From a virus (taxonomy: Duplodnaviria > Caudoviricetes), in the IMG/VR virus record IMGVR_UViG_3300025301_000016, positions 1 to 52,817 of that record: a stretch of 52,817 nt of DNA; one strand, 5' to 3'. The translations under genes were made by a program, and so were the position numbers. Positions 44,692 through 51,900 of the stretch are shown one piece after another (position 1 is the first letter of the stretch; each line of letters opens with the position of its first letter). Under the pieces are notes generated by a model. It was not told where the DNA came from. It ran no database searches and saw nothing but the letters and a program-made list of their open reading frames with translations.

Positions 44692-44889
44692 TCACCGATC
44701 TAATTCTTCTTCCAATACATGCGTAACGACCAACGTTGTCTCCATCTTCTGCCCTTCTGAACCAAAGTGGCGGTAGATGAGATATATCTCGCCATCTTCT
44801 TTCCCTAGGTCTACAGACCAAGGCAATTCATCTTTCGTGAGACTAACAATTGAAAGCCATTTATCTACTGTGGATTGTCTTTCAGACAT
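44692..44889 (-). CDS. Hypothetical protein
   Basis: AGGAG RBS; overlaps the E1 stop. Confidence 0.65.
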   Translation of the reverse strand: MSERQSTVDKWLSIVSLTKDELPWSVDLGKEDGEIYLIYRHFGSEGQKMETTLVVTHVLEEELDR

Positions 44890-45652
44890 CTTGATTCTCC
44901 TCTAAAATAGTTGGCGTTAATTCTCCAGATCCTATAGAAAAGGTCAAGTCAGCGTCTATTGGAGCATCTCGTAGCCACTTGGCAAACTGAGACACCATTA
45001 AACCTGCTGCTAATGAAGCACTATACACAGTGCTTTGTGTAGTGCAGGCTCCCTGAAATGCTTCGCTCCCTGAAAACAGAGTAGCTGGATAATTCATAAA
45101 AGATTCATGGTTTTCATTCCATGCAGTGATTATTCGCAACACTTCGCCAGCCATCCGACCGTCACACCAGAAATCAAAGTTTCTTCTATTGTTAATCCAT
45201 ATATGCTTACGGGTATCAATGGAATCTACGCAACAGAATACAGCTGTGGGGCCGCTATGTTCTCTAAGCATGGACGACTTCCATCGAGACGTATTAGTCT
45301 TGACATCTGTGGCTGAGTTGATCATCTGTAGATTTTCAGCTACTGCTAGCACCTTATACTGCCCAAGAAATTCCGTAGACCATGCTTGCGGTCCCAAATT
45401 AACCACCTCAATGGAGTCATGGTCGGTCAAGCTAATAGATGGAACTCCCATAGCTGACAGCATACAAGCTACTTGCCTACCTATAGCACCACATCCAATA
45501 ACATGAGCTTCAATTTCCTTCAGCCTATCAGGTGGTATTAATTCTTTTTGTCTAACATCTCGTGTTAACTCTTGCGTCTTAACAGCTTCAACAGAGGATA
45601 CATCAGACAGCGTAGCCCCTATGATCCCATCCGTCGTCTCCATCTGATCCAA
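44882..45652 (-). CDS. ThiF/E1-like ubiquitin-activating enzyme
   Basis: VIGCGAIG, DHDSIEVVNLGPQ, KVLA, FCCVDSIDTR, DGRM, putative catalytic Cys in GACTTQST. Confidence 0.92.
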   Translation of the reverse strand: MDQMETTDGIIGATLSDVSSVEAVKTQELTRDVRQKELIPPDRLKEIEAHVIGCGAIGRQVACMLSAMGVPSISLTDHDSIEVVNLGPQAWSTEFLGQYKVLAVAENLQMINSATDVKTNTSRWKSSMLREHSGPTAVFCCVDSIDTRKHIWINNRRNFDFWCDGRMAGEVLRIITAWNENHESFMNYPATLFSGSEAFQGACTTQSTVYSASLAAGLMVSQFAKWLRDAPIDADLTFSIGSGELTPTILEENQDV

Positions 45653-46304
45653 AGTAGTCTTCCTCCTCAGCTTTTGAGTTAGTTATGCTATTGCCTGTCT
45701 TAAAATTCTCCCCATGATAACCCTTGTATTGGCCAAAATCATATGAGCTAAAGTTATTTTTATTAGAAGAGGTAATAGTTGTGAATGATCTGGTGACAGT
45801 GCTTACTTTCTCTTCTAATTCTTTTGCCCAATCATTAGGATTAGCTTGTGTAATTGGCAAACTCCATTCAATTTCTATTGAAGGGAGCGTAATGAAGCCA
45901 CAATCTGGATGTGTTATCCACAAATGCCCCTCACTTGTATCACCATCTGATCCCATGATAGCCATTAATGACCAGTCACAGTCAGTAAACTTCTCTTTAA
46001 ACATTTCCCAGTCTGTACTAGAGGGAGTCGTGCATTTACTGGGGTGGGTATGTATCCAAATACGAAGGCATTCACTTGGATGGCGTCCTGATGCAACTTG
46101 ATCTTCAACATATTCAGCCAATGCCTCATCATCTAACTCGACTGTTGCTGCGGTGCACTCTTGTTTAATCAGGTGAAACTCTGTTACCAGTAGTGGATCT
46201 TCGGTAGAGCTTACTCCAAATCCTCCTATTTCAGTATCGGACAAAGTGCACATATACCGAAGCTTTGCCCATGCTGTTGGAGCCATGCGTAATCGAAGTG
46301 CCAT
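45603..46304 (-). CDS. JAB/MPN metallopeptidase (deubiquitinase-like)
   Basis: TEIGGFG (catalytic Glu) and JAMM motif WIHTHPSKCTTPSSTD. Confidence 0.9.
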   Translation of the reverse strand: MALRLRMAPTAWAKLRYMCTLSDTEIGGFGVSSTEDPLLVTEFHLIKQECTAATVELDDEALAEYVEDQVASGRHPSECLRIWIHTHPSKCTTPSSTDWEMFKEKFTDCDWSLMAIMGSDGDTSEGHLWITHPDCGFITLPSIEIEWSLPITQANPNDWAKELEEKVSTVTRSFTTITSSNKNNFSSYDFGQYKGYHGENFKTGNSITNSKAEEEDYFGSDGDDGWDHRGYAV

Positions 46305-46316
46305 GCTATCCTTTCT

Positions 46317-47678
46317 TTAAAGAGGTTGATATTCTGATAATGCTGTAGCGGATTCTAATTCATTTGTGGTTTGACCTGAAGCTCCAAATATTGGACTCTC
46401 ATTTTCCTCAGCCTCAAGGTCTTGCTCATTTTGTCGTTTTTCTGCTAGTGCAAACAGGACTTCTGCATTATGTGCACTGAGGCAGCGATCACAAAATCTA
46501 CTTTCGGGAGTATAACATTCATCTACCCCATCGTGACTGCAAGTTTTTACATGATAACTGCAGAAAATTTCATCACAATTGGAGCAGGTCCATGTGCAAT
46601 CACCGCATATTGAATCTTCACATCCCGATTGCTGACAATAATGCAAATAGTCCTCATCATATATAGTCACTCCGCATTCGGTACAACTCTTACCGGTCCC
46701 ATGCCAACGCGATAATGACCTATAAGGACTTTCTACTTCTCCATCATAAAAGAGGACGCTGTTTATTAGCAGGGCTGCATCGGTAAATCTTTGTTCAGAT
46801 AAGGCATTACCCAAGGCCGTTGCTGCATTCCCCATGCATATTACATGGTCACTCACATTAGGATGTGTGACATCGTCAGAATCAATTGGATAATTGGGAG
46901 TTATAGCACGAACTAGTGGAGGATCTGTCCTTGGCGAGCGGTCAATCCCATAGAAAGAGCGGAAATGTATTTCAAATTTCCCCAAATCAATTGTTTCTTG
47001 TAAGTCATTGGGATCATCAAATACAACAGGCTCTTTGGTGATCACACTAAATGTTCCCTGCATTAGCTCATAGGCGCTTGGCTCACTTGCCGAAGGTGCC
47101 TCTGTTGTTACGTAGACCTCACCAAATTCTTTCTCAAGAGCTACTAACTCGTCATAAAAGAACTGTCGAGAGGTCGTATGATCCTCTGTCCAAAATGGAC
47201 TGGTGCCGGGTAGAACTACAGGGGCCTCTCCATGATAAAAGCTCTTAAGGTTGGCTTTCCATTCAGGATACGGCTTAACTTTTAAGTCCTCTATAGAGGC
47301 GAGGAATGCGCTTTCATAATTCTGTAGGATAGTTACAAGGTCATCATGTATATATTTCAATCTTGAAACATCAACGTCAATTAAGCTATGCCTATGTGCG
47401 GGAGCTGCCGCAAGAAAAAATGGCAGCTCATTTTCATTATCTACAAGCTTTTTAAAACTATCACGAGAATTATCCCGCAATCGATTAAGAGATTGATGCA
47501 TGAGAATCCAACGTGTACTAGGATAAGCTTCTGGTGCGTCATGTGGCTCGTGATTGAATTGTTTTGCGGCAAGAGCTTCTTGTTCTAAGCGGACAAATCT
47601 ACGAGTGTCTGGTTTCATCCAGCACTCGTAGATCCAGCCAGCCAGCTCTTGCGTAATTGGAAGAGCGGCCTTTGCCAT
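46317..47678 (-). CDS. Prokaryotic E2-like conjugating enzyme with C-terminal Cys/His-rich zinc domain
   Basis: LGKFEI...HPNVSDHVICMGNA (HPN...C), SPYRSLSRW, several CxxC pairs; lies between Ubl and JAB. Confidence 0.8.
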   Translation of the reverse strand: MAKAALPITQELAGWIYECWMKPDTRRFVRLEQEALAAKQFNHEPHDAPEAYPSTRWILMHQSLNRLRDNSRDSFKKLVDNENELPFFLAAAPAHRHSLIDVDVSRLKYIHDDLVTILQNYESAFLASIEDLKVKPYPEWKANLKSFYHGEAPVVLPGTSPFWTEDHTTSRQFFYDELVALEKEFGEVYVTTEAPSASEPSAYELMQGTFSVITKEPVVFDDPNDLQETIDLGKFEIHFRSFYGIDRSPRTDPPLVRAITPNYPIDSDDVTHPNVSDHVICMGNAATALGNALSEQRFTDAALLINSVLFYDGEVESPYRSLSRWHGTGKSCTECGVTIYDEDYLHYCQQSGCEDSICGDCTWTCSNCDEIFCSYHVKTCSHDGVDECYTPESRFCDRCLSAHNAEVLFALAEKRQNEQDLEAEENESPIFGASGQTTNELESATALSEYQPL

Positions 47679-47679
47679 T

Positions 47680-47907
47680 CTAATTCAAAGCCCCTTCCAC
47701 CTTAGTGGGAGTAATGGATATACGATCATCTTCCTTCAACTCATAGGAAGCTTGGACCTGATCCCGATTAACGCGGATCATATATCCATCTGGACGCTGC
47801 CCTTGCATCTGGGAAGCAAAGAATTGATCGATGGTTGTCCCATCGCCGGTCTCAACGTAGTCAGCGAAACCGCCGCCATCGTTGTTAATCAAGAATACTC
47901 GTGGCAT
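47680..47907 (-). CDS. Ubiquitin-like (beta-grasp) protein
   Basis: 75 aa; INNDGGGFAD, IRVNR, LKEDDRISITPTKVEGA; first gene of the Ubl-E2-JAB-E1 cluster. Confidence 0.88.
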   Translation of the reverse strand: MPRVFLINNDGGGFADYVETGDGTTIDQFFASQMQGQRPDGYMIRVNRDQVQASYELKEDDRISITPTKVEGALN

Positions 47908-47937
47908 TCTCTTTCTCCATGTTAAGGGTTAACTACG

Positions 47938-48288
47938 CTAAACATCATTTACGTCAACTGTAAAGCGAGCTACTTCAGGAGTGGTTGTAAACTCCGTGGA
48001 CTTCCTGTACTTCTTGTTCCCATCACGCTTGTCAACTCCACCTTGCTCAATCAATTGAGTGCGGAGCTTGTCAATGGCGTGGTCAAACTCAGCCGTACTT
48101 ATATCACTCGCCTTTTTGTCTTCGGACAAATCCACTAGCTTGCCCATCAACAAAGACGCTTGATCGAATTCCAGCTCAGGTTTAAGCTCACGGACATCTA
48201 CTTGAGTGAACTTAAACAAGCCGAAAGTTTGTCCTCTTGTGGCCAACCTAATCTCAGTTGGCTCAACTTCATCCTGCTTGTCACTCAT
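47938..48288 (-). CDS. Hypothetical early protein, paralogue of 51981-52526
   Basis: AAGGAG RBS; shares FKxTxVDVR...EL...AS.L.G.LV.L...R.QLI..GG.DK...V.RF.V.V. Confidence 0.8.
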   Translation of the reverse strand: MSDKQDEVEPTEIRLATRGQTFGLFKFTQVDVRELKPELEFDQASLLMGKLVDLSEDKKASDISTAEFDHAIDKLRTQLIEQGGVDKRDGNKKYRKSTEFTTTPEVARFTVDVNDV

Positions 48289-48332
48289 GCTTCTCCTTTC
48301 CTTTTTAATGGCGGTCGGCGGCGAGCATTCAT

Positions 48333-48375
48333 CTCCTCCCCACCACCCTCACTCCGTGAGGGTGGTGGGGAGGAG
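48333..48375. promoter_or_regulatory. G/C hairpin element copy 1
   Basis: Perfect 20-bp stem CTCCTCCCCACCACCCTCAC-TCC-GTGAGGGTGGTGGGGAGGAG. Confidence 0.85.
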
Positions 48376-48402
48376 GGTACATCTTGATGCTGCTGCTGCT
48401 TA

Positions 48403-49178
48403 CTGCATAGCCACACTATGCTGCAACTTGCTGTAGCCTGCTGTGCAAGGGACTGTGCTATACTGGGAATTGCTGCAATTTACTGGAGAGTGCTGTGCAA
48501 GGGACTGTACTATGCTACGCCATACCACGCAGAACCCAACTATGCTCCTCTACGCCCTGCTTTGGACTGTGCTGTGCCATACCAGACTTAGTCCTGCTCT
48601 GGACTGTACTGTGCTGTGCTGTGCTGGGCCTAACCTAGCCGTGCGCCGGACTGTACTGTGCTGGGCCGGGCCGCTCTCTGAATTGCTTGACGGCGCATTG
48701 CCATGGACTGTGCTACGCTACACAATGCACAACTATACCGAACTACGCACCACTTTGCCGGGCACCGCCTTACCACGGACTGTGCTGTGCTATACAATGC
48801 ACCACTTTGACAGGCACTGCTTCGGACTGTGCTGTGCTATCATGGCAGGCCATGCTGTAGGCGATGCTGAACAAAGGAGAGCCCCACCTTACCCTGCTCC
48901 GGACTGTGCTATGCTGTGCCGTACCGGACTGGGATAGGGCTTGCCCTGCCGTGGACTATGCTGTGCCGTACTGTGCTATGCTGTGCCGTACTGTGCTATG
49001 CTGTGCCGTACCGGACTGGGATAGGGCTTGCCCTGCCGTGGACTATGCTGTGCCGTACCGGGCTCAACTCGGCCAGACCATGCGGTGGACTGTGCTATAC
49101 TGTGTCGCGCCCAACTCGACGGCGCAGTGGACTGTGCTATACTCCACGCAGCAATACATTGCCAAGCAATGCTTAGCC
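48403..49178 (-). ncRNA. Pentamer-periodic (DGY-NN) repeat array, candidate guide-RNA array of ~14 units
   Basis: 13 AGTCC anchors with all spacings 5n+2; begins right after the stop codon of 49179-49490; the repeat is directly visible, the RNA role is inferred. Confidence 0.75.
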
Positions 49179-49490
49179 TTAGGTTGGCAATCCATAGAAA
49201 TTTCTTATATTTTTTCTTGCTTCTTCTAACTCTTTAATAGCGCATATTATATCTTCTGGAACTTCCCCTTCCACGGTCGGGTTGGCCCAAGTTACAAGCT
49301 CTTCTAAATCTTTAAATTGTTCAATAATTTTTCTCAGATCCCTGTCGATCTCGTCTATACCTTTGGTCGTAGCGGATTCACGCCACCATACTCTATCAAT
49401 CTTTCTCCATACGTCCAAGATTCGGCTTCTTCGTTCAAGCTCTCCTTGTGTGGAGCTGGCATTAAGAAACTTAATTTTAAAAGTTGGCAT
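49179..49490 (-). CDS. Small helical accessory protein between the Cas7-like gene and the array
   Basis: ATG 1 nt after the upstream stop; DRDLRKIIEQFKDLEEL amphipathic helix. Confidence 0.75.
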   Translation of the reverse strand: MPTFKIKFLNASSTQGELERRSRILDVWRKIDRVWWRESATTKGIDEIDRDLRKIIEQFKDLEELVTWANPTVEGEVPEDIICAIKELEEARKNIRNFYGLPT

Positions 49491-49491
49491 G

Positions 49492-50151
49492 TTATGGTAT
49501 AACTTTTACATCTTCAACTTCAAACTGTCCATGCAATCCTTTGTTGATAACCCTCCAAGCACCAACGCCTACAGAATTACCAGCATGTTGTAGCAGGTTA
49601 CAGATCTGGTGGATTGTTAGAAAGTCAGCATTAAACTTAAAGCGCAATATACATTTCCAATCATGAAACTCAGCACGAACGGTTACTGTCTGTGGATTCT
49701 TTGGTGTAGTGCCACCTACTTTATCAAGCCGTATCTTACGAGTGGAGAACTCCAAGGGAACATGCTCATCAAGAGGGATGAAGGCATGGTTCGCTTCGGT
49801 CATAGCGATACCATCAATGAGTCTGGCGGCATCTCTACATGCCAATCGAAAGCCACTGGCTGGAAATCCGAAGGTTCCCGTAGTCTCTTCGCCCCCTTCT
49901 TGATAGCCAAACTGATGTGACTCCAATCGATACGTTGAATCTTCATACTCTTTATTGCGATCACGAGCTTTCTTGGCACCTCTGGGTGTCTTTTCAGCGT
50001 CTCCCATGATCTTTGCAATAGCTTCTTCAGTCATTCTGTCTGTGAGTAATGGAGTCACACCTTTGATTCGCACTTCTGCGTAATGATAATTGGGATCATG
50101 AATGTTCAGTGTTGTAGCAGTCTCTTCTTTCTTTGCCTTAGCTTTTGCCAC
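49492..50151 (-). CDS. Stand-alone Cas7/RAMP-like RNA-binding protein
   Basis: VRIKGVTPLL (beta1), FPASGFRLACRDAA (RAMP helix-1 motif), VRAEFHDW, Gly-rich loop AGNSVGVGAWRVINKGLHGQFEV. Confidence 0.78.
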   Translation of the reverse strand: MAKAKAKKEETATTLNIHDPNYHYAEVRIKGVTPLLTDRMTEEAIAKIMGDAEKTPRGAKKARDRNKEYEDSTYRLESHQFGYQEGGEETTGTFGFPASGFRLACRDAARLIDGIAMTEANHAFIPLDEHVPLEFSTRKIRLDKVGGTTPKNPQTVTVRAEFHDWKCILRFKFNADFLTIHQICNLLQHAGNSVGVGAWRVINKGLHGQFEVEDVKVIP

Positions 50152-50470
50152 GTTTTGTGCCTTTCTTTTTGAGTTTAAACTCCTTGTTACAGCTGCGACA
50201 CTTTACTTTATCTCCTGCTTTTGGGGAGTCGATGGATACGATACCGTATCTTGTTCGGCGTTCGCCCAATCCATCAATGTCCCATTCATACCATTGTGCC
50301 AGATGTGCAGTGAACCGAGCTTCTTCTGGATCATCGGCCCCGCTATTACAGTGTGGGCATATCCATTCGAGATTGTCGGCACTGATCCATCCGTCTCCGT
50401 CAAACTGTGAAGCCTCATCAAAGCGTTTATGAGATAGCTTTGTCTTCGGCTTGAAGTCGTACTTTGCCAT
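50138..50470 (-). CDS. Zinc-finger protein
   Basis: CPHC...CRSC; overlaps the start of the Cas7-like gene. Confidence 0.7.
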   Translation of the reverse strand: MAKYDFKPKTKLSHKRFDEASQFDGDGWISADNLEWICPHCNSGADDPEEARFTAHLAQWYEWDIDGLGERRTRYGIVSIDSPKAGDKVKCRSCNKEFKLKKKGTKRGKS

Positions 50471-51746: not shown

Positions 51747-51794
51747 AAGCTATTCTCCCTTGATTAAAGTATGGTCGGCGTCGTTCGCCATTAC

Positions 51795-51838
51795 CACCAC
51801 CCCACCACCCTCACTGTGTGAGGGGTGGTGGGGTGGTG
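51795..51838. promoter_or_regulatory. G/C hairpin element copy 2
   Basis: CACCACCCCACCACCCTCAC-TGT-GTGAGGGGTGGTGGGGTGGTG, 20 bp with one bulged G. Confidence 0.85.
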
Positions 51839-51900
51839 TACATCGGATGCTGCTGCTGCTTACTGTCGGTTCCGGTAGGACATTTTTACACAGATAGCAT

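What the first reader, a model, noticed from the sequence alone, without database searches (positions are those of the whole stretch)
48450..49178. Strict 5n+2 unit-length rule and polarised unit grammar
Seen: GGACT anchors (AGTCC on -) at 48450, 48502, 48564, 48601, 48648, 48705, 48777, 48824, 48901, 48953, 49040, 49087 and 49129 give spacings 52, 62, 37, 47, 57, 72, 47, 77, 52, 87, 47, 42, all 2 mod 5. Two further GGACT (48926, 49013) fall in pentamer register inside units. Each - strand unit is a 2-nt linker, then variable pentamers, then a stereotyped tail (AGCAC/AGCAT/AGTAC)n-AGTCC. Example: GT GGTAA GGCGG TGCCC GGCAA AGTGG TGCGT AGTTC GGTAT AGTTG TGCAT TGTGT AGCGT AGCAC AGTCC. Inference: the 2-nt register break delimits individual guides or filaments and may be the processing site.
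Basis: partly seen in the sequence, partly recalled or inferred. Interest (0 to 1): 0.88.

Follow-up and report, generated by a model that had tools for sequence, protein, structure and literature searches.

The report
VIPR guide-RNA array, 2-nt stagger
This is a phage VIPR locus, a recently described RNA-guided silencing system related to CRISPR: 13 back-to-back guide RNAs built from 5-letter repeats sit next to their Cas7-like protein, and the 5n+2 rule reflects a fixed 2-letter spacer after a conserved end-cap.

Summary
On the minus strand, 49178-48450 holds 13 abutting units. Each is a run of NGYNN pentamers (97 of 115 body pentamers) ending in AGYAY-AGTCC. All 12 anchor spacings are 2 mod 5.

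This is a known kind of element. The ORF just upstream (49492-50151, minus) is a Vipr protein: its family profile matches the solved SUSP1 Vipr chain at E 2.4e-14, and its model resembles Cas7/Csm3. Four 2026 bioRxiv preprints describe VIPR. Its vrRNAs are 9-16 pentamer repeats plus a 3' tail, one Vipr protomer binds each pentamer, variant consensuses such as YNNNG exist, and "staggered" arrays overlap by 1 nt.

- Junction offset: 100 of 105 junctions beside Vipr with an acidic G-loop residue shift by 4 mod 5. All 11 junctions beside Ala-type Vipr shift by +2 (window, L125, L126).
- Relaxed first base: the Ala-type loci also lose G at pentamer position 1.
- Strain variants: they differ by whole units (52, 87, 144 nt) or by single pentamers.

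RNA ends, processing and targets remain untested. Verdict: a new member of a known kind with a minor architectural twist.

The parts
49492..50151 (-). vipr gene: 219-aa RAMP (Cas7-like) protein with G-loop GVGAWR
   Evidence: The family profile A1 matches PDB 36pp_D 'SUSP1 Vipr protein' at E 2.4e-14. The AF2 model (pLDDT 71.8) has type VII Cas7 and Csm3 as its top Foldseek hits. The family has 7399 representatives at E<=1e-3. phrog_4652, function unknown.
49179..49490 (-). 103-aa ORF between vipr and the array; candidate accessory (vap-like) gene by position only
   Evidence: No Pfam match. No homolog in the other Vipr loci. The single-sequence AF2 model is a three-helix fold of low confidence (pLDDT 61).
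49129..49178 (-). vrRNA unit 1 (50 nt, 10 pentamers); starts right after the stop codon of the 103-aa ORF
49087..49128 (-). vrRNA unit 2 (42 nt: AC + 8 pentamers)
49040..49086 (-). vrRNA unit 3 (47 nt)
48953..49039 (-). vrRNA unit 4 (87 nt, 17 pentamers). It shares its 5' part with unit 5 and has an expanded AGTAC-GGCAC-AGCAT-AGCAC tail and an internal in-register AGTCC
48901..48952 (-). vrRNA unit 5 (52 nt)
48824..48900 (-). vrRNA unit 6 (77 nt); the middle is degenerate
48777..48823 (-). vrRNA unit 7 (47 nt)
48648..48704 (-). vrRNA unit 9 (57 nt)
48601..48647 (-). vrRNA unit 10 (47 nt; only 4 variable pentamers before the (AGCAC)3-AGTAC-AGTCC tail)
48564..48600 (-). vrRNA unit 11 (37 nt, 7 pentamers; the shortest)
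48502..48563 (-). vrRNA unit 12 (62 nt)
48450..48501 (-). vrRNA unit 13 (52 nt); absent from a variant contig of run X15
48380..48449 (-). Capless, partly degenerate pentamer tract after the last cap (CT + TGCAC AGCAG ...); a possible decayed or terminal 14th unit
48332..48376 (-). Perfect 20-bp hairpin just downstream of the array, with no U tract; a possible 3' end or terminator element
   Evidence: Fold z = -5.8 against 200 shuffles. Not called by the terminator scan.

Best explanation
The region is the guide-RNA (vrRNA) array of a phage VIPR system (Viral Interference Programmable Repeat). It is read on the minus strand, downstream of its vipr gene.

Each of the 13 units is most likely one vrRNA. 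A unit has a body of NGY/NN pentamers and a 3' cap, (A/G)GYAY...AGUCC. By analogy with SUSP1 VIPR, one Vipr protomer would grip each NGY and present the NN pair for gapped pairing to DNA under the published 1-nt skip rule.

The 5n+2 rule follows from two facts. The body can only change in steps of 5 nt, and the junction (one cap pentamer plus a 2-nt spacer) has a fixed length.

Shown here: the anatomy; the Vipr identity; conservation of cap plus 2-nt spacer in relatives at 45-53% protein identity; variation among strains in steps of whole units or single pentamers.

Inferred, not shown: a spacing other than a multiple of 5 stops a Vipr filament from running on into the next unit, so each unit forms its own ribonucleoprotein; the exposed spacer is where the transcript is cut or trimmed; the relaxed first base (N instead of G) results from loss of the two residues that read G1 in SUSP1 Vipr (H17 to D38, D177 to A198).
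For: Vipr identity:
- Profile hit to the solved SUSP1 Vipr chain at E 2.4e-14, covering residues 2-188 of 202.
- Cas7/Csm3-like fold.
- R159, W199 and R200 align with SUSP1 R138, W178 and R179, which hold G2 and Y3.

Association of protein and repeats:
- 57 of the 80 viral loci kept from the Vipr-profile scan have at least one run of 8 or more GY-periodic pentamers on the vipr strand.

Literature:
- vrRNAs are 9-16 YNNGG repeats plus a 3' tail.
- Alternative consensuses include YNNNG.
- Staggered arrays overlap by 1 nt.
- One protomer binds each repeat.

Junction offsets (113 loci with a Vipr hit):
- 100 of 105 junctions beside acidic-type Vipr shift by 4 mod 5.
- 11 of 11 junctions beside Ala-type Vipr shift by +2 (window 5, L125 2, L126 4).

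Clade conservation and cap polarity:
- L125 repeats (NGCAC)n-AGTCC plus 2 nt, with 4 of 5 anchor spacings equal to 2 mod 5.
- L012 solo units place the cap at the 3' end.

Frequency of G at pentamer position 1:
- 0.88 on average over the 64 H/E loci that have arrays.
- 0.07-0.55 in the six Ala-type loci with 26 or more pentamers.

Strain variants:
- Skips of 52, 87 and 144 nt; 144 nt has the residue mod 5 expected of two units.
- 113 nt replaced by 16, a net change of 97, which is 2 mod 5.
- 5-nt indels.

RNA folding:
- The array RNA folds no better than its shuffles (z +1.65; 20 of 20 shuffles fold at least as well). That fits a single-stranded protein scaffold with no structured tails.
Against: - No RNA data exist, so ends, processing and even transcription are unproven.
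- Exceptions to the G1 correlation: L152 has Asp at the acidic position yet G1 frequency 0.08; L127 is Ala-type with 0.88, though from only 8 pentamers; L095 and L067 are acidic-type at 0.62-0.68.
- L128, Ala-type and 46% identical, has a longer tail of variable length and no constant residue mod 5.
- L012 tandem units are spaced 105 and 100 nt, which is 0 mod 5, with 35-nt non-repeat spacers between them.
- Several units carry few variable pentamers: 4 in unit 10, and 7 pentamers in total in unit 11. That is below the published 9-16 and would give weak specificity.
- No natural target was found. There is no convincing self match, and two exact 10-dinucleotide patterns gave no hit in the viral collection.
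- The 103-aa neighbour is not a recognisable vap gene.
Confidence: 0.8

Rival explanations
1. It is a VIPR array, but the offset of 2 has no function of its own. It would be a frozen by-product of the array growing by duplication of one founder junction. Unit boundaries would be set by the cap sequence (GCAY-NGUCC), recognised by Vipr or by a host RNase, and not by the register.
For: - The cap pattern is the inverse of the body: NN is fixed and position 1 varies in L125 (A, T or C before GCAC), which suggests sequence-specific recognition.
- L128 and the L012 tandem units work without a constant residue.
- Units 4 and 5 are recent duplicates.
- A variant contig deletes unit 13 with 18 nt of shared sequence at the joint, as recombination between repeated junctions would give.
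Against: Among the 116 directly abutting junctions scored (113 loci with a Vipr hit), only 3 keep the register (shift 0). Two offset classes (4 mod 5 and +2) are each conserved across divergent loci. Drift alone does not predict that.
Confidence: 0.3
2. The units are not all true guides. The array, or its AGCAC-rich units, would act as a sponge or decoy that soaks up or redirects the Vipr of a competitor. Solo vrRNAs of SUSP1 satellites have been reported to do this.
For: - The October 2026 preprint reports solo vrRNAs that redirect Vipr (abstract, passages).
- Several units have only 4-5 variable pentamers and long stereotyped tails.
- No target was found.
Against: - A cognate vipr gene lies directly upstream on the same strand.
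- Most units carry 6-12 variable pentamers with near-random NN.
- The target search was very shallow: exact matches only, for two guides.
Confidence: 0.1
3. It is a DNA-level repeat, such as iterons, a packaging site or protein-binding sites, or a coding region, and is unrelated to RNA guides.
For: Long open frames cross the array on the + strand (164 and 121 aa). There is no promoter-like site on the minus strand within the scanned region.
Against: - The + strand frames have no family match. They are expected by chance in a tract of this biased composition, which has few stop triplets.
- A period of 5 nt is incompatible with coding.
- The strand and position relative to vipr are the same across the viral Vipr loci that carry arrays.
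- The pentamer consensus tracks residues of the adjacent protein.
Confidence: 0.03

Closest known systems
VIPR systems, type II as characterised in coliphage SUSP1 and a Pseudomonas fulva prophage (bioRxiv 10.64898/2026.04.26.720920 and 10.64898/2026.04.26.720927)
   Same: A small RAMP protein with the G-loop motif GxGxWR lies next to same-strand tracts of pentanucleotide repeats in which three positions are constrained and two (NN) vary freely. Unit size is similar (7-17 pentamers here, 9-16 published). Polarity is the same: variable tract first, then a conserved 3' end. The residues holding G2 and Y3 are conserved (R159, W199, R200).
   Different: The consensus is NGY/NN, not GGY/NN. The two G1-reading residues are replaced (H17 to D38, D177 to A198). 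There is no roughly 40-nt pseudoknot tail; the 3' end is two or more stereotyped pentamers ending in AGUCC. The 13 units abut directly. The neighbouring gene is not a recognisable vap1.
'Staggered' vrRNA arrays of VIPR (legend of Fig. S18 of 10.64898/2026.04.26.720920; figure not seen)
   Same: The vrRNAs abut with no structured spacer, and the end of one marks the start of the next. A register break separates neighbouring pentamer tracts.
   Different: The published form overlaps by 1 nt. I found it as GGCAG|GC at 56 junctions, and a 4-nt-linker form (GGCAG/GGCCG-TCNN) at 23 junctions; both are 4 mod 5. The window has a 2-nt spacer after an AGUCC cap (2 mod 5), seen only beside Ala-type Vipr.
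Non-canonical VIPR repeats (YNNNG, NNNGG, NNNNG in 10.64898/2026.04.26.720920; WGT/NN, TGH/NN and others in 10.64898/2026.10.21.760802)
   Same: Rotated, NGYNN is YNNNG, so the relaxed first G is already a reported class.
   Different: The passages I read do not link the relaxation to particular Vipr residues or to a particular junction offset.
Class 1 CRISPR backbones (Cas7/Csm3 filaments on crRNA)
   Same: A RAMP fold, one protomer per short RNA step, and thumb-induced base flipping. The top structural matches of the window protein are of this kind.
   Different: The period is 6 nt with a contiguous guide. The arrays are repeat-spacer arrays processed by Cas6. Other cas genes are present, and none is here.
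TRAP binding to (G/U)AG repeats spaced about 5 nt apart (recalled, not from any call)
   Same: A protein oligomer reads a trinucleotide at roughly 5-nt periodicity on single-stranded RNA. This was my first working idea.
   Different: There is no TRAP-like gene. The adjacent protein is a RAMP, and the variable dinucleotides act as a guide code according to the VIPR papers.

Membership tests
VIPR system | Vipr protein: a single-RRM RAMP with a glycine-rich loop and a thumb | tested here: met
   Profile A1 against the SUSP1 Vipr PDB chain gives E 2.4e-14 over residues 2-188. Foldseek top hits are Cas7/Csm3. The G-loop GVGAWR and thumb Arg159 align with SUSP1 GVGDWR and R138.
VIPR system | Same-strand tandem pentanucleotide repeats with a conserved trinucleotide and a hypervariable NN, next to vipr | tested here: met
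   97 of 115 body pentamers are NGY. Information is 1.23 and 0.78 bits at G and Y, against 0.25 and 0.12 at the NN positions. The consensus is the relaxed YNNNG class named in the preprint's methods.
VIPR system | Each vrRNA has 9-16 repeats followed by an invariable 3' tail | tested here: inconclusive
   The units have 7-17 pentamers. A conserved 3' cap is present (AGYAY-AGTCC in 13 of 13 units), but it is only about 10 nt, sits in pentamer form and is unstructured. It is not the roughly 40-nt pseudoknot tail.
VIPR system | vrRNAs are expressed as discrete small RNAs and co-purify with Vipr | not testable with these tools
   No RNA run holds the locus. Only DNA contigs could be laid.
VIPR system | The NN code matches natural targets under the 1-nt skip rule | tested here: inconclusive
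   There is no convincing self target (best 16 of 20). Exact 10-dinucleotide patterns from units 8 and 12 gave 0 hits in the viral collection. No mismatch-tolerant search of a collection was possible.
VIPR system | An accessory vap gene beside vipr | tested here: inconclusive
   A 103-aa ORF sits in the expected place. It has no family match and no homolog in the other Vipr loci.
VIPR 'staggered' array (Fig. S18 type) | Neighbouring vrRNAs overlap by 1 nt, so unit length is 5n-1 | tested here: not met
   All 12 spacings in the window are 5n+2, with a 2-nt spacer. The 1-nt-overlap form was found in other loci, at 56 junctions.
Hammerhead-interspersed VIPR array | A ribozyme between neighbouring vrRNAs | tested here: not met
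   There is no hammerhead or other relevant Rfam match in 47800-49800 at E<=10, and 2-nt junctions leave no room for one.
CRISPR array | Direct repeats of about 24-40 nt alternating with unique spacers; cas genes nearby | tested here: not met
   The only repeated element is a cap of about 10 nt, and the 'spacers' are themselves periodic at 5 nt. No cas families were found among the ten neighbouring ORFs tested.

The most novel reading that the evidence does not exclude
The register offset is an encoded punctuation mark of VIPR arrays. On this reading a non-multiple-of-5 step ends one Vipr filament and starts the next on a single transcript. The offset class would co-evolve with the protein: 4 mod 5 with Vipr that keeps an acidic G1-reading residue, and +2 with an Ala-type clade that has lost G1 reading. 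That clade would use a short GCAY-NGUCC cap in place of a structured tail as its nucleation or processing signal. If so, it is a distinct and so far undescribed VIPR subtype, and filament length would be set purely by sequence phase.
Probability: 0.35. Interest if true: 0.55.

Novelty: new member of a known kind. Interest (0 to 1): 0.35.

Why it matters
VIPR was first reported in 2026 as a minimal RNA-guided DNA-silencing system that may pre-date CRISPR. How multi-guide arrays are divided into single guides is one of its open points, because the staggered architecture was not confirmed experimentally in the preprint.

This marine phage gives a clean 13-unit example. Together with its relatives it shows that unit boundaries follow a fixed phase rule, and that the rule differs between protein clades.

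It also points to two residues (SUSP1 H17 and D177) whose loss goes with a relaxed first base. That offers a simple handle for engineering repeat specificity and for annotating arrays automatically.

For genome annotation the message is practical: the long intergenic stretch and the spurious + strand ORFs over it should be annotated as a vrRNA array.

Tried and rejected
Ideas dropped:
- A TRAP-like attenuator or other periodic RNA-binding site was my first idea. I dropped it once the neighbouring protein proved to be a Vipr RAMP.
- A promoter or processing element upstream of genes was suggested by the dispersed units in L012. I now read those as solo or flanking vrRNAs.

Searches that found nothing useful:
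- Rfam: only weak sub-threshold hits on the downstream hairpin.
- Nucleotide similarity to deposited phages: no match.
- The 116-aa downstream ORF as a handle for relatives: none.
- The close-relative scan of metagenome contigs with the window Vipr alone: none.
- Exact 15-mer cap search: 37 loci, of which only L012, L026 and L035 carry periodic tracts.
- Tandem-cap pattern: 5 loci, all unrelated sequence.

Expression and targets:
- No RNA holder was listed for the locus, so nothing can be said about expression.
- In the laid DNA contigs, many substitutions come from poorly aligned short contigs. I did not use them to compare NN with GY variability.
- Target prediction: no self target; two exact gapped patterns gave 0 hits; kin genomes cannot be drawn for a virus record.

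Other limits:
- The 103-aa ORF folded from a single sequence gave only a low-confidence helical model. I did not take it to a fold search.
- I could not assign one of the seven published VIPR types. The type figures and data are in supplements or images that I could not see. These (Figs S16-S18, data S4 of 10.64898/2026.04.26.720920) may already show this clade or offset.

Papers, and what I saw of each:
- 10.64898/2026.04.26.720920: outline, Results, Discussion, first part of Methods, and passages including supplementary figure legends.
- 10.64898/2026.04.26.720927: outline, two Results sections, passages.
- 10.64898/2026.10.15.759431: outline with abstract, passages.
- 10.64898/2026.10.21.760802: passages only.
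- My statement that the 5n+2 offset is not described rests on term searches within these four papers and two library searches.
Full report
Observation. The rest of the 52.8-kb window holds 42 copies, about 0.8 per kb. Read on the minus strand and cut after each of the 13 main AGTCC, the sequence falls into units of 50, 42, 47, 87, 52, 77, 47, 72, 57, 47, 37, 62 and 52 nt. All 12 anchor-to-anchor spacings are 2 mod 5, which has a chance of 4e-9 for one given residue. The two extra anchors lie 25 and 60 nt from the previous one, so they are in register. Within units, 113 of 131 pentamers fit NGYNN. With the two cap pentamers of each unit removed, 97 of 115 fit, against a background GY frequency of 0.106 (P about 1e-75). 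Information is concentrated at G (1.23 bits) and Y (0.78). Positions 4-5 are near random (0.25 and 0.12 bits). In the cap the pattern inverts: A, G and the last C are nearly fixed. Nothing similar occurs elsewhere in the window. One refinement: AGTCC alone does not break the register, because the two internal copies are followed in register.

What it is. The window is a complete virus record. Structural genes lie on the + strand and early genes on the minus strand. The large terminase is nearest to those of Pseudanabaena and Microcystis phages, at 44% identity or less. The array fills the gap between a 103-aa ORF and a 116-aa ORF on the minus strand. Two genes upstream lies a 219-aa ORF (49492-50151) with no Pfam match, assigned only to phrog_4652, function unknown. 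An exact search for the cap 15-mer led to L012, an unrelated GC-rich phage contig. There, tracts of 11-14 NGYNN pentamers ending in AGCAC-AGTCC sit in intergenic regions around a homolog of this ORF. A profile of the ORF and its relatives (A1) finds 7399 representative proteins at E<=1e-3 and 231 viral loci, of which 80 were kept. It matches the solved 'SUSP1 Vipr protein' chain 36pp_D at E 2.4e-14. The AF2 model (pLDDT 71.8) resembles type VII Cas7 and type III Csm3 (49 Foldseek matches at E<=1e-3). Of the 80 viral loci, 57 carry at least one run of 8 or more GY-periodic pentamers on the vipr strand, mostly just downstream of the gene.

Literature. Four 2026 bioRxiv preprints describe VIPR.
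- The discovery paper (Results, Discussion, part of Methods and figure legends read) reports vrRNAs of 9-16 YNNGG repeats, with conserved GGY and hypervariable NN, followed by an invariable 3' tail.
- It also reports a 1-nt skip rule for DNA targets, seven types, and alternative consensuses NNNGG, YNNNG and NNNNG.
- It describes several array architectures, including 'staggered arrays' in which vrRNAs come from positions overlapping by 1 nt. Only the ribozyme-interspersed and single-vrRNA architectures were confirmed by sRNA-seq.
- The structure paper (two sections and passages) shows one protomer per repeat. G1 is read by H17 and D177, G2 by R138 and W178, and Y3 partly by R179. R-loop growth runs from the 3' pseudoknot towards the 5' end.
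- A third paper reports solo vrRNAs that redirect Vipr.
- A fourth reports further non-canonical 5-mers.
The window's NGYNN is the YNNNG class after rotation. The finding is thus a VIPR vrRNA array.

The unit-length rule in context. I called runs of GY-periodic pentamers in the window, L012 and the 80 viral loci, and scored the phase shift at directly abutting runs. Of 88 junctions:
- 56 overlap by 1 nt (GGCAG|GC...), which is the published staggered form.
- 23 have a 4-nt linker (GGCAG or GGCCG, then TCNN). Both of these forms are 4 mod 5.
- 6 shift by +2 (5 in the window, 1 in L045), 2 shift by 0 and 1 by +3.
The window's offset is therefore real and unusual. A second round with the closest proteins (A2) brought 31 more loci. 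L125, whose Vipr is 53% identical, has an array starting right after the gene with the same grammar: (NGCAC)n-AGTCC, a 2-nt spacer, then the next unit. Its anchor spacings are 62, 115, 57, 47 and 62, so 4 of 5 are 2 mod 5; the exception contains a 55-nt non-repeat insert. L126 (45% identical) uses AGCAT-CGTCC, CGTCA or CGCCC caps, again with 2-nt spacers. L128 (46% identical) has a longer tail of variable length (CGGCAGTTCC...TCGTCC) and no constant residue. The rule therefore holds wherever the junction has a fixed length. It is a clade feature, not a universal one.

Protein-RNA covariation. I aligned the Vipr of 113 loci to the profile and read the columns of SUSP1 H17 and D177.
- 104 loci have Glu or Asp at the D177 column. 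Of these, 88 are the His/Glu combination.
- 7 have Ala there (window, L125, L126, L127, L128, L012, L072). 2 have something else.
- In the 64 H/E loci with arrays, G at pentamer position 1 averages 0.88.
- In the six Ala-type loci with 26 or more pentamers it is 0.07-0.55 (window 0.29).
- Exceptions: L127 (Ala-type, 0.88, but only 8 pentamers), L152 (Asp, 0.08), and L095 and L067 (0.62-0.68).
- Junction offsets split the same way: 100 of 105 are 4 mod 5 beside acidic-type Vipr, and 11 of 11 are +2 beside Ala-type Vipr.
- The residues that hold G2 and Y3 are kept in the window protein (R159, W199, R200).
Loss of the G1 contacts is a reasonable cause of the relaxed first base. This rests on a sequence alignment and a correlation that has exceptions.

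Variation among strains. No RNA run holds the locus. I laid DNA contigs from four runs that hold only part of the stretch. They show a 52-nt skip that removes unit 13, an 87-nt skip and a 144-nt skip; the last has the residue mod 5 expected of two units. They also show a 113-nt stretch replaced by 16 letters (net 97, which is 2 mod 5), an inserted CTGTG in a tail, and a 5-nt deletion. Change therefore comes in whole units or whole pentamers, as a modular guide array would predict. These are short contigs from metagenomes, so I give the joints weight but not the scattered substitutions.

Other features.
- The array RNA folds slightly worse than its dinucleotide shuffles (z +1.65; 20 of 20 shuffles fold at least as well). 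There is no structured tail between units and no ribozyme.
- A perfect 20-bp hairpin follows the array (z -5.8).
- No sigma-70-like site lies on the minus strand nearby, so the array is probably co-transcribed with vipr.
- The + strand ORFs over the array have no family match.
- Under the published NNx rule there is no convincing self target. Two exact 10-dinucleotide patterns found nothing in the viral collection. That is a very shallow test.

Mechanism. Shown: the anatomy, the Vipr identity, conservation of the cap and spacer in the clade, and modular variation. From the published structures: one protomer per pentamer, with NN as the guide code. Inferred: because the body changes only in 5-nt steps and the junction is one cap pentamer plus 2 nt, every unit is 5n+2. 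The non-zero phase step most likely prevents a filament from reading through into the next unit. Each unit would then assemble its own RNP, and the exposed spacer would be cut or trimmed. The cap, whose NN is fixed, would act as a handle or nucleation signal in place of the pseudoknot tail. The main rival is that the offset itself is neutral and only the cap matters. L128 and the L012 tandem units argue for that rival. The near absence of in-register junctions (3 of the 116 scored) argues against it.

Verdict. The processing claim is untested. The element belongs to a kind described in 2026. The locus is a new member with a relaxed consensus of an already reported class and with a 2-nt stagger and short cap. 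I did not find that stagger or cap described in the text I could read. Interest is moderate to low for the finding as such. It would be higher if the phase-punctuation reading and its co-variation with the G-loop residue hold up.

Noticed in passing
window 44882-47907 (minus strand): Directly downstream of the VIPR locus lies a ubiquitin-like conjugation module. It comprises a 75-aa ThiS-like protein (47680-47907, weak), a 453-aa protein with a Cys-rich C-terminus (46317-47678, no family), a JAB-like protein (45603-46304, weak) and a ThiF/E1-like protein (44882-45652, E 5e-23). None has a homolog in the other Vipr loci.
   Followed up: partly
window 48332-48376 and 51794-51865: The perfect 20-bp C/G-rich hairpin after the array has a 20-nt identical stretch at 51846-51865. 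Complementary 8-mer repeats lie at 51794-51838. This looks like a repeated hairpin element, perhaps a phage terminator or punctuation element.
   Followed up: partly
L012 2780-5055: In this GC-rich phage contig the same AGCAC-AGTCC-capped tracts are dispersed in intergenic regions on both sides of vipr. One cap ends 1 nt before the ATG of an XRE-like gene that has no Shine-Dalgarno sequence. Two units are 105-nt duplicates.
   Followed up: partly
L128 780-3300: This contig has large arrays on both sides of its vipr gene. The units end in (CGCAT)n followed by a 17-22-nt tail, CGGCAGTTCC...TCGTCC, and then a 2-nt spacer. The tail contains two GTCC-like motifs and varies in length, so no mod-5 rule holds.
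   Followed up: partly
L152 1686-1809: An AT-rich array of NGTTN pentamers with a 1-nt overlap junction (AGTC|TGTTA), beside a Vipr that keeps Asp at the D177 column. G1 frequency is only 0.08, which is an exception to the residue-consensus correlation.
   Followed up: no
window 48899-49058: An 87-nt direct duplication (1.8 copies, 98% identical) creates units 4 and 5. A 20-nt sub-repeat (2.8 copies) lengthens the tail of unit 4. This is evidence of recent array growth by duplication and slippage.
   Followed up: yes
window 50138-50470 (minus strand): The 110-aa ORF just upstream of vipr has weak, sub-threshold HNH and zinc-finger-like matches. I did not examine whether it is linked to the VIPR locus.
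   Followed up: no
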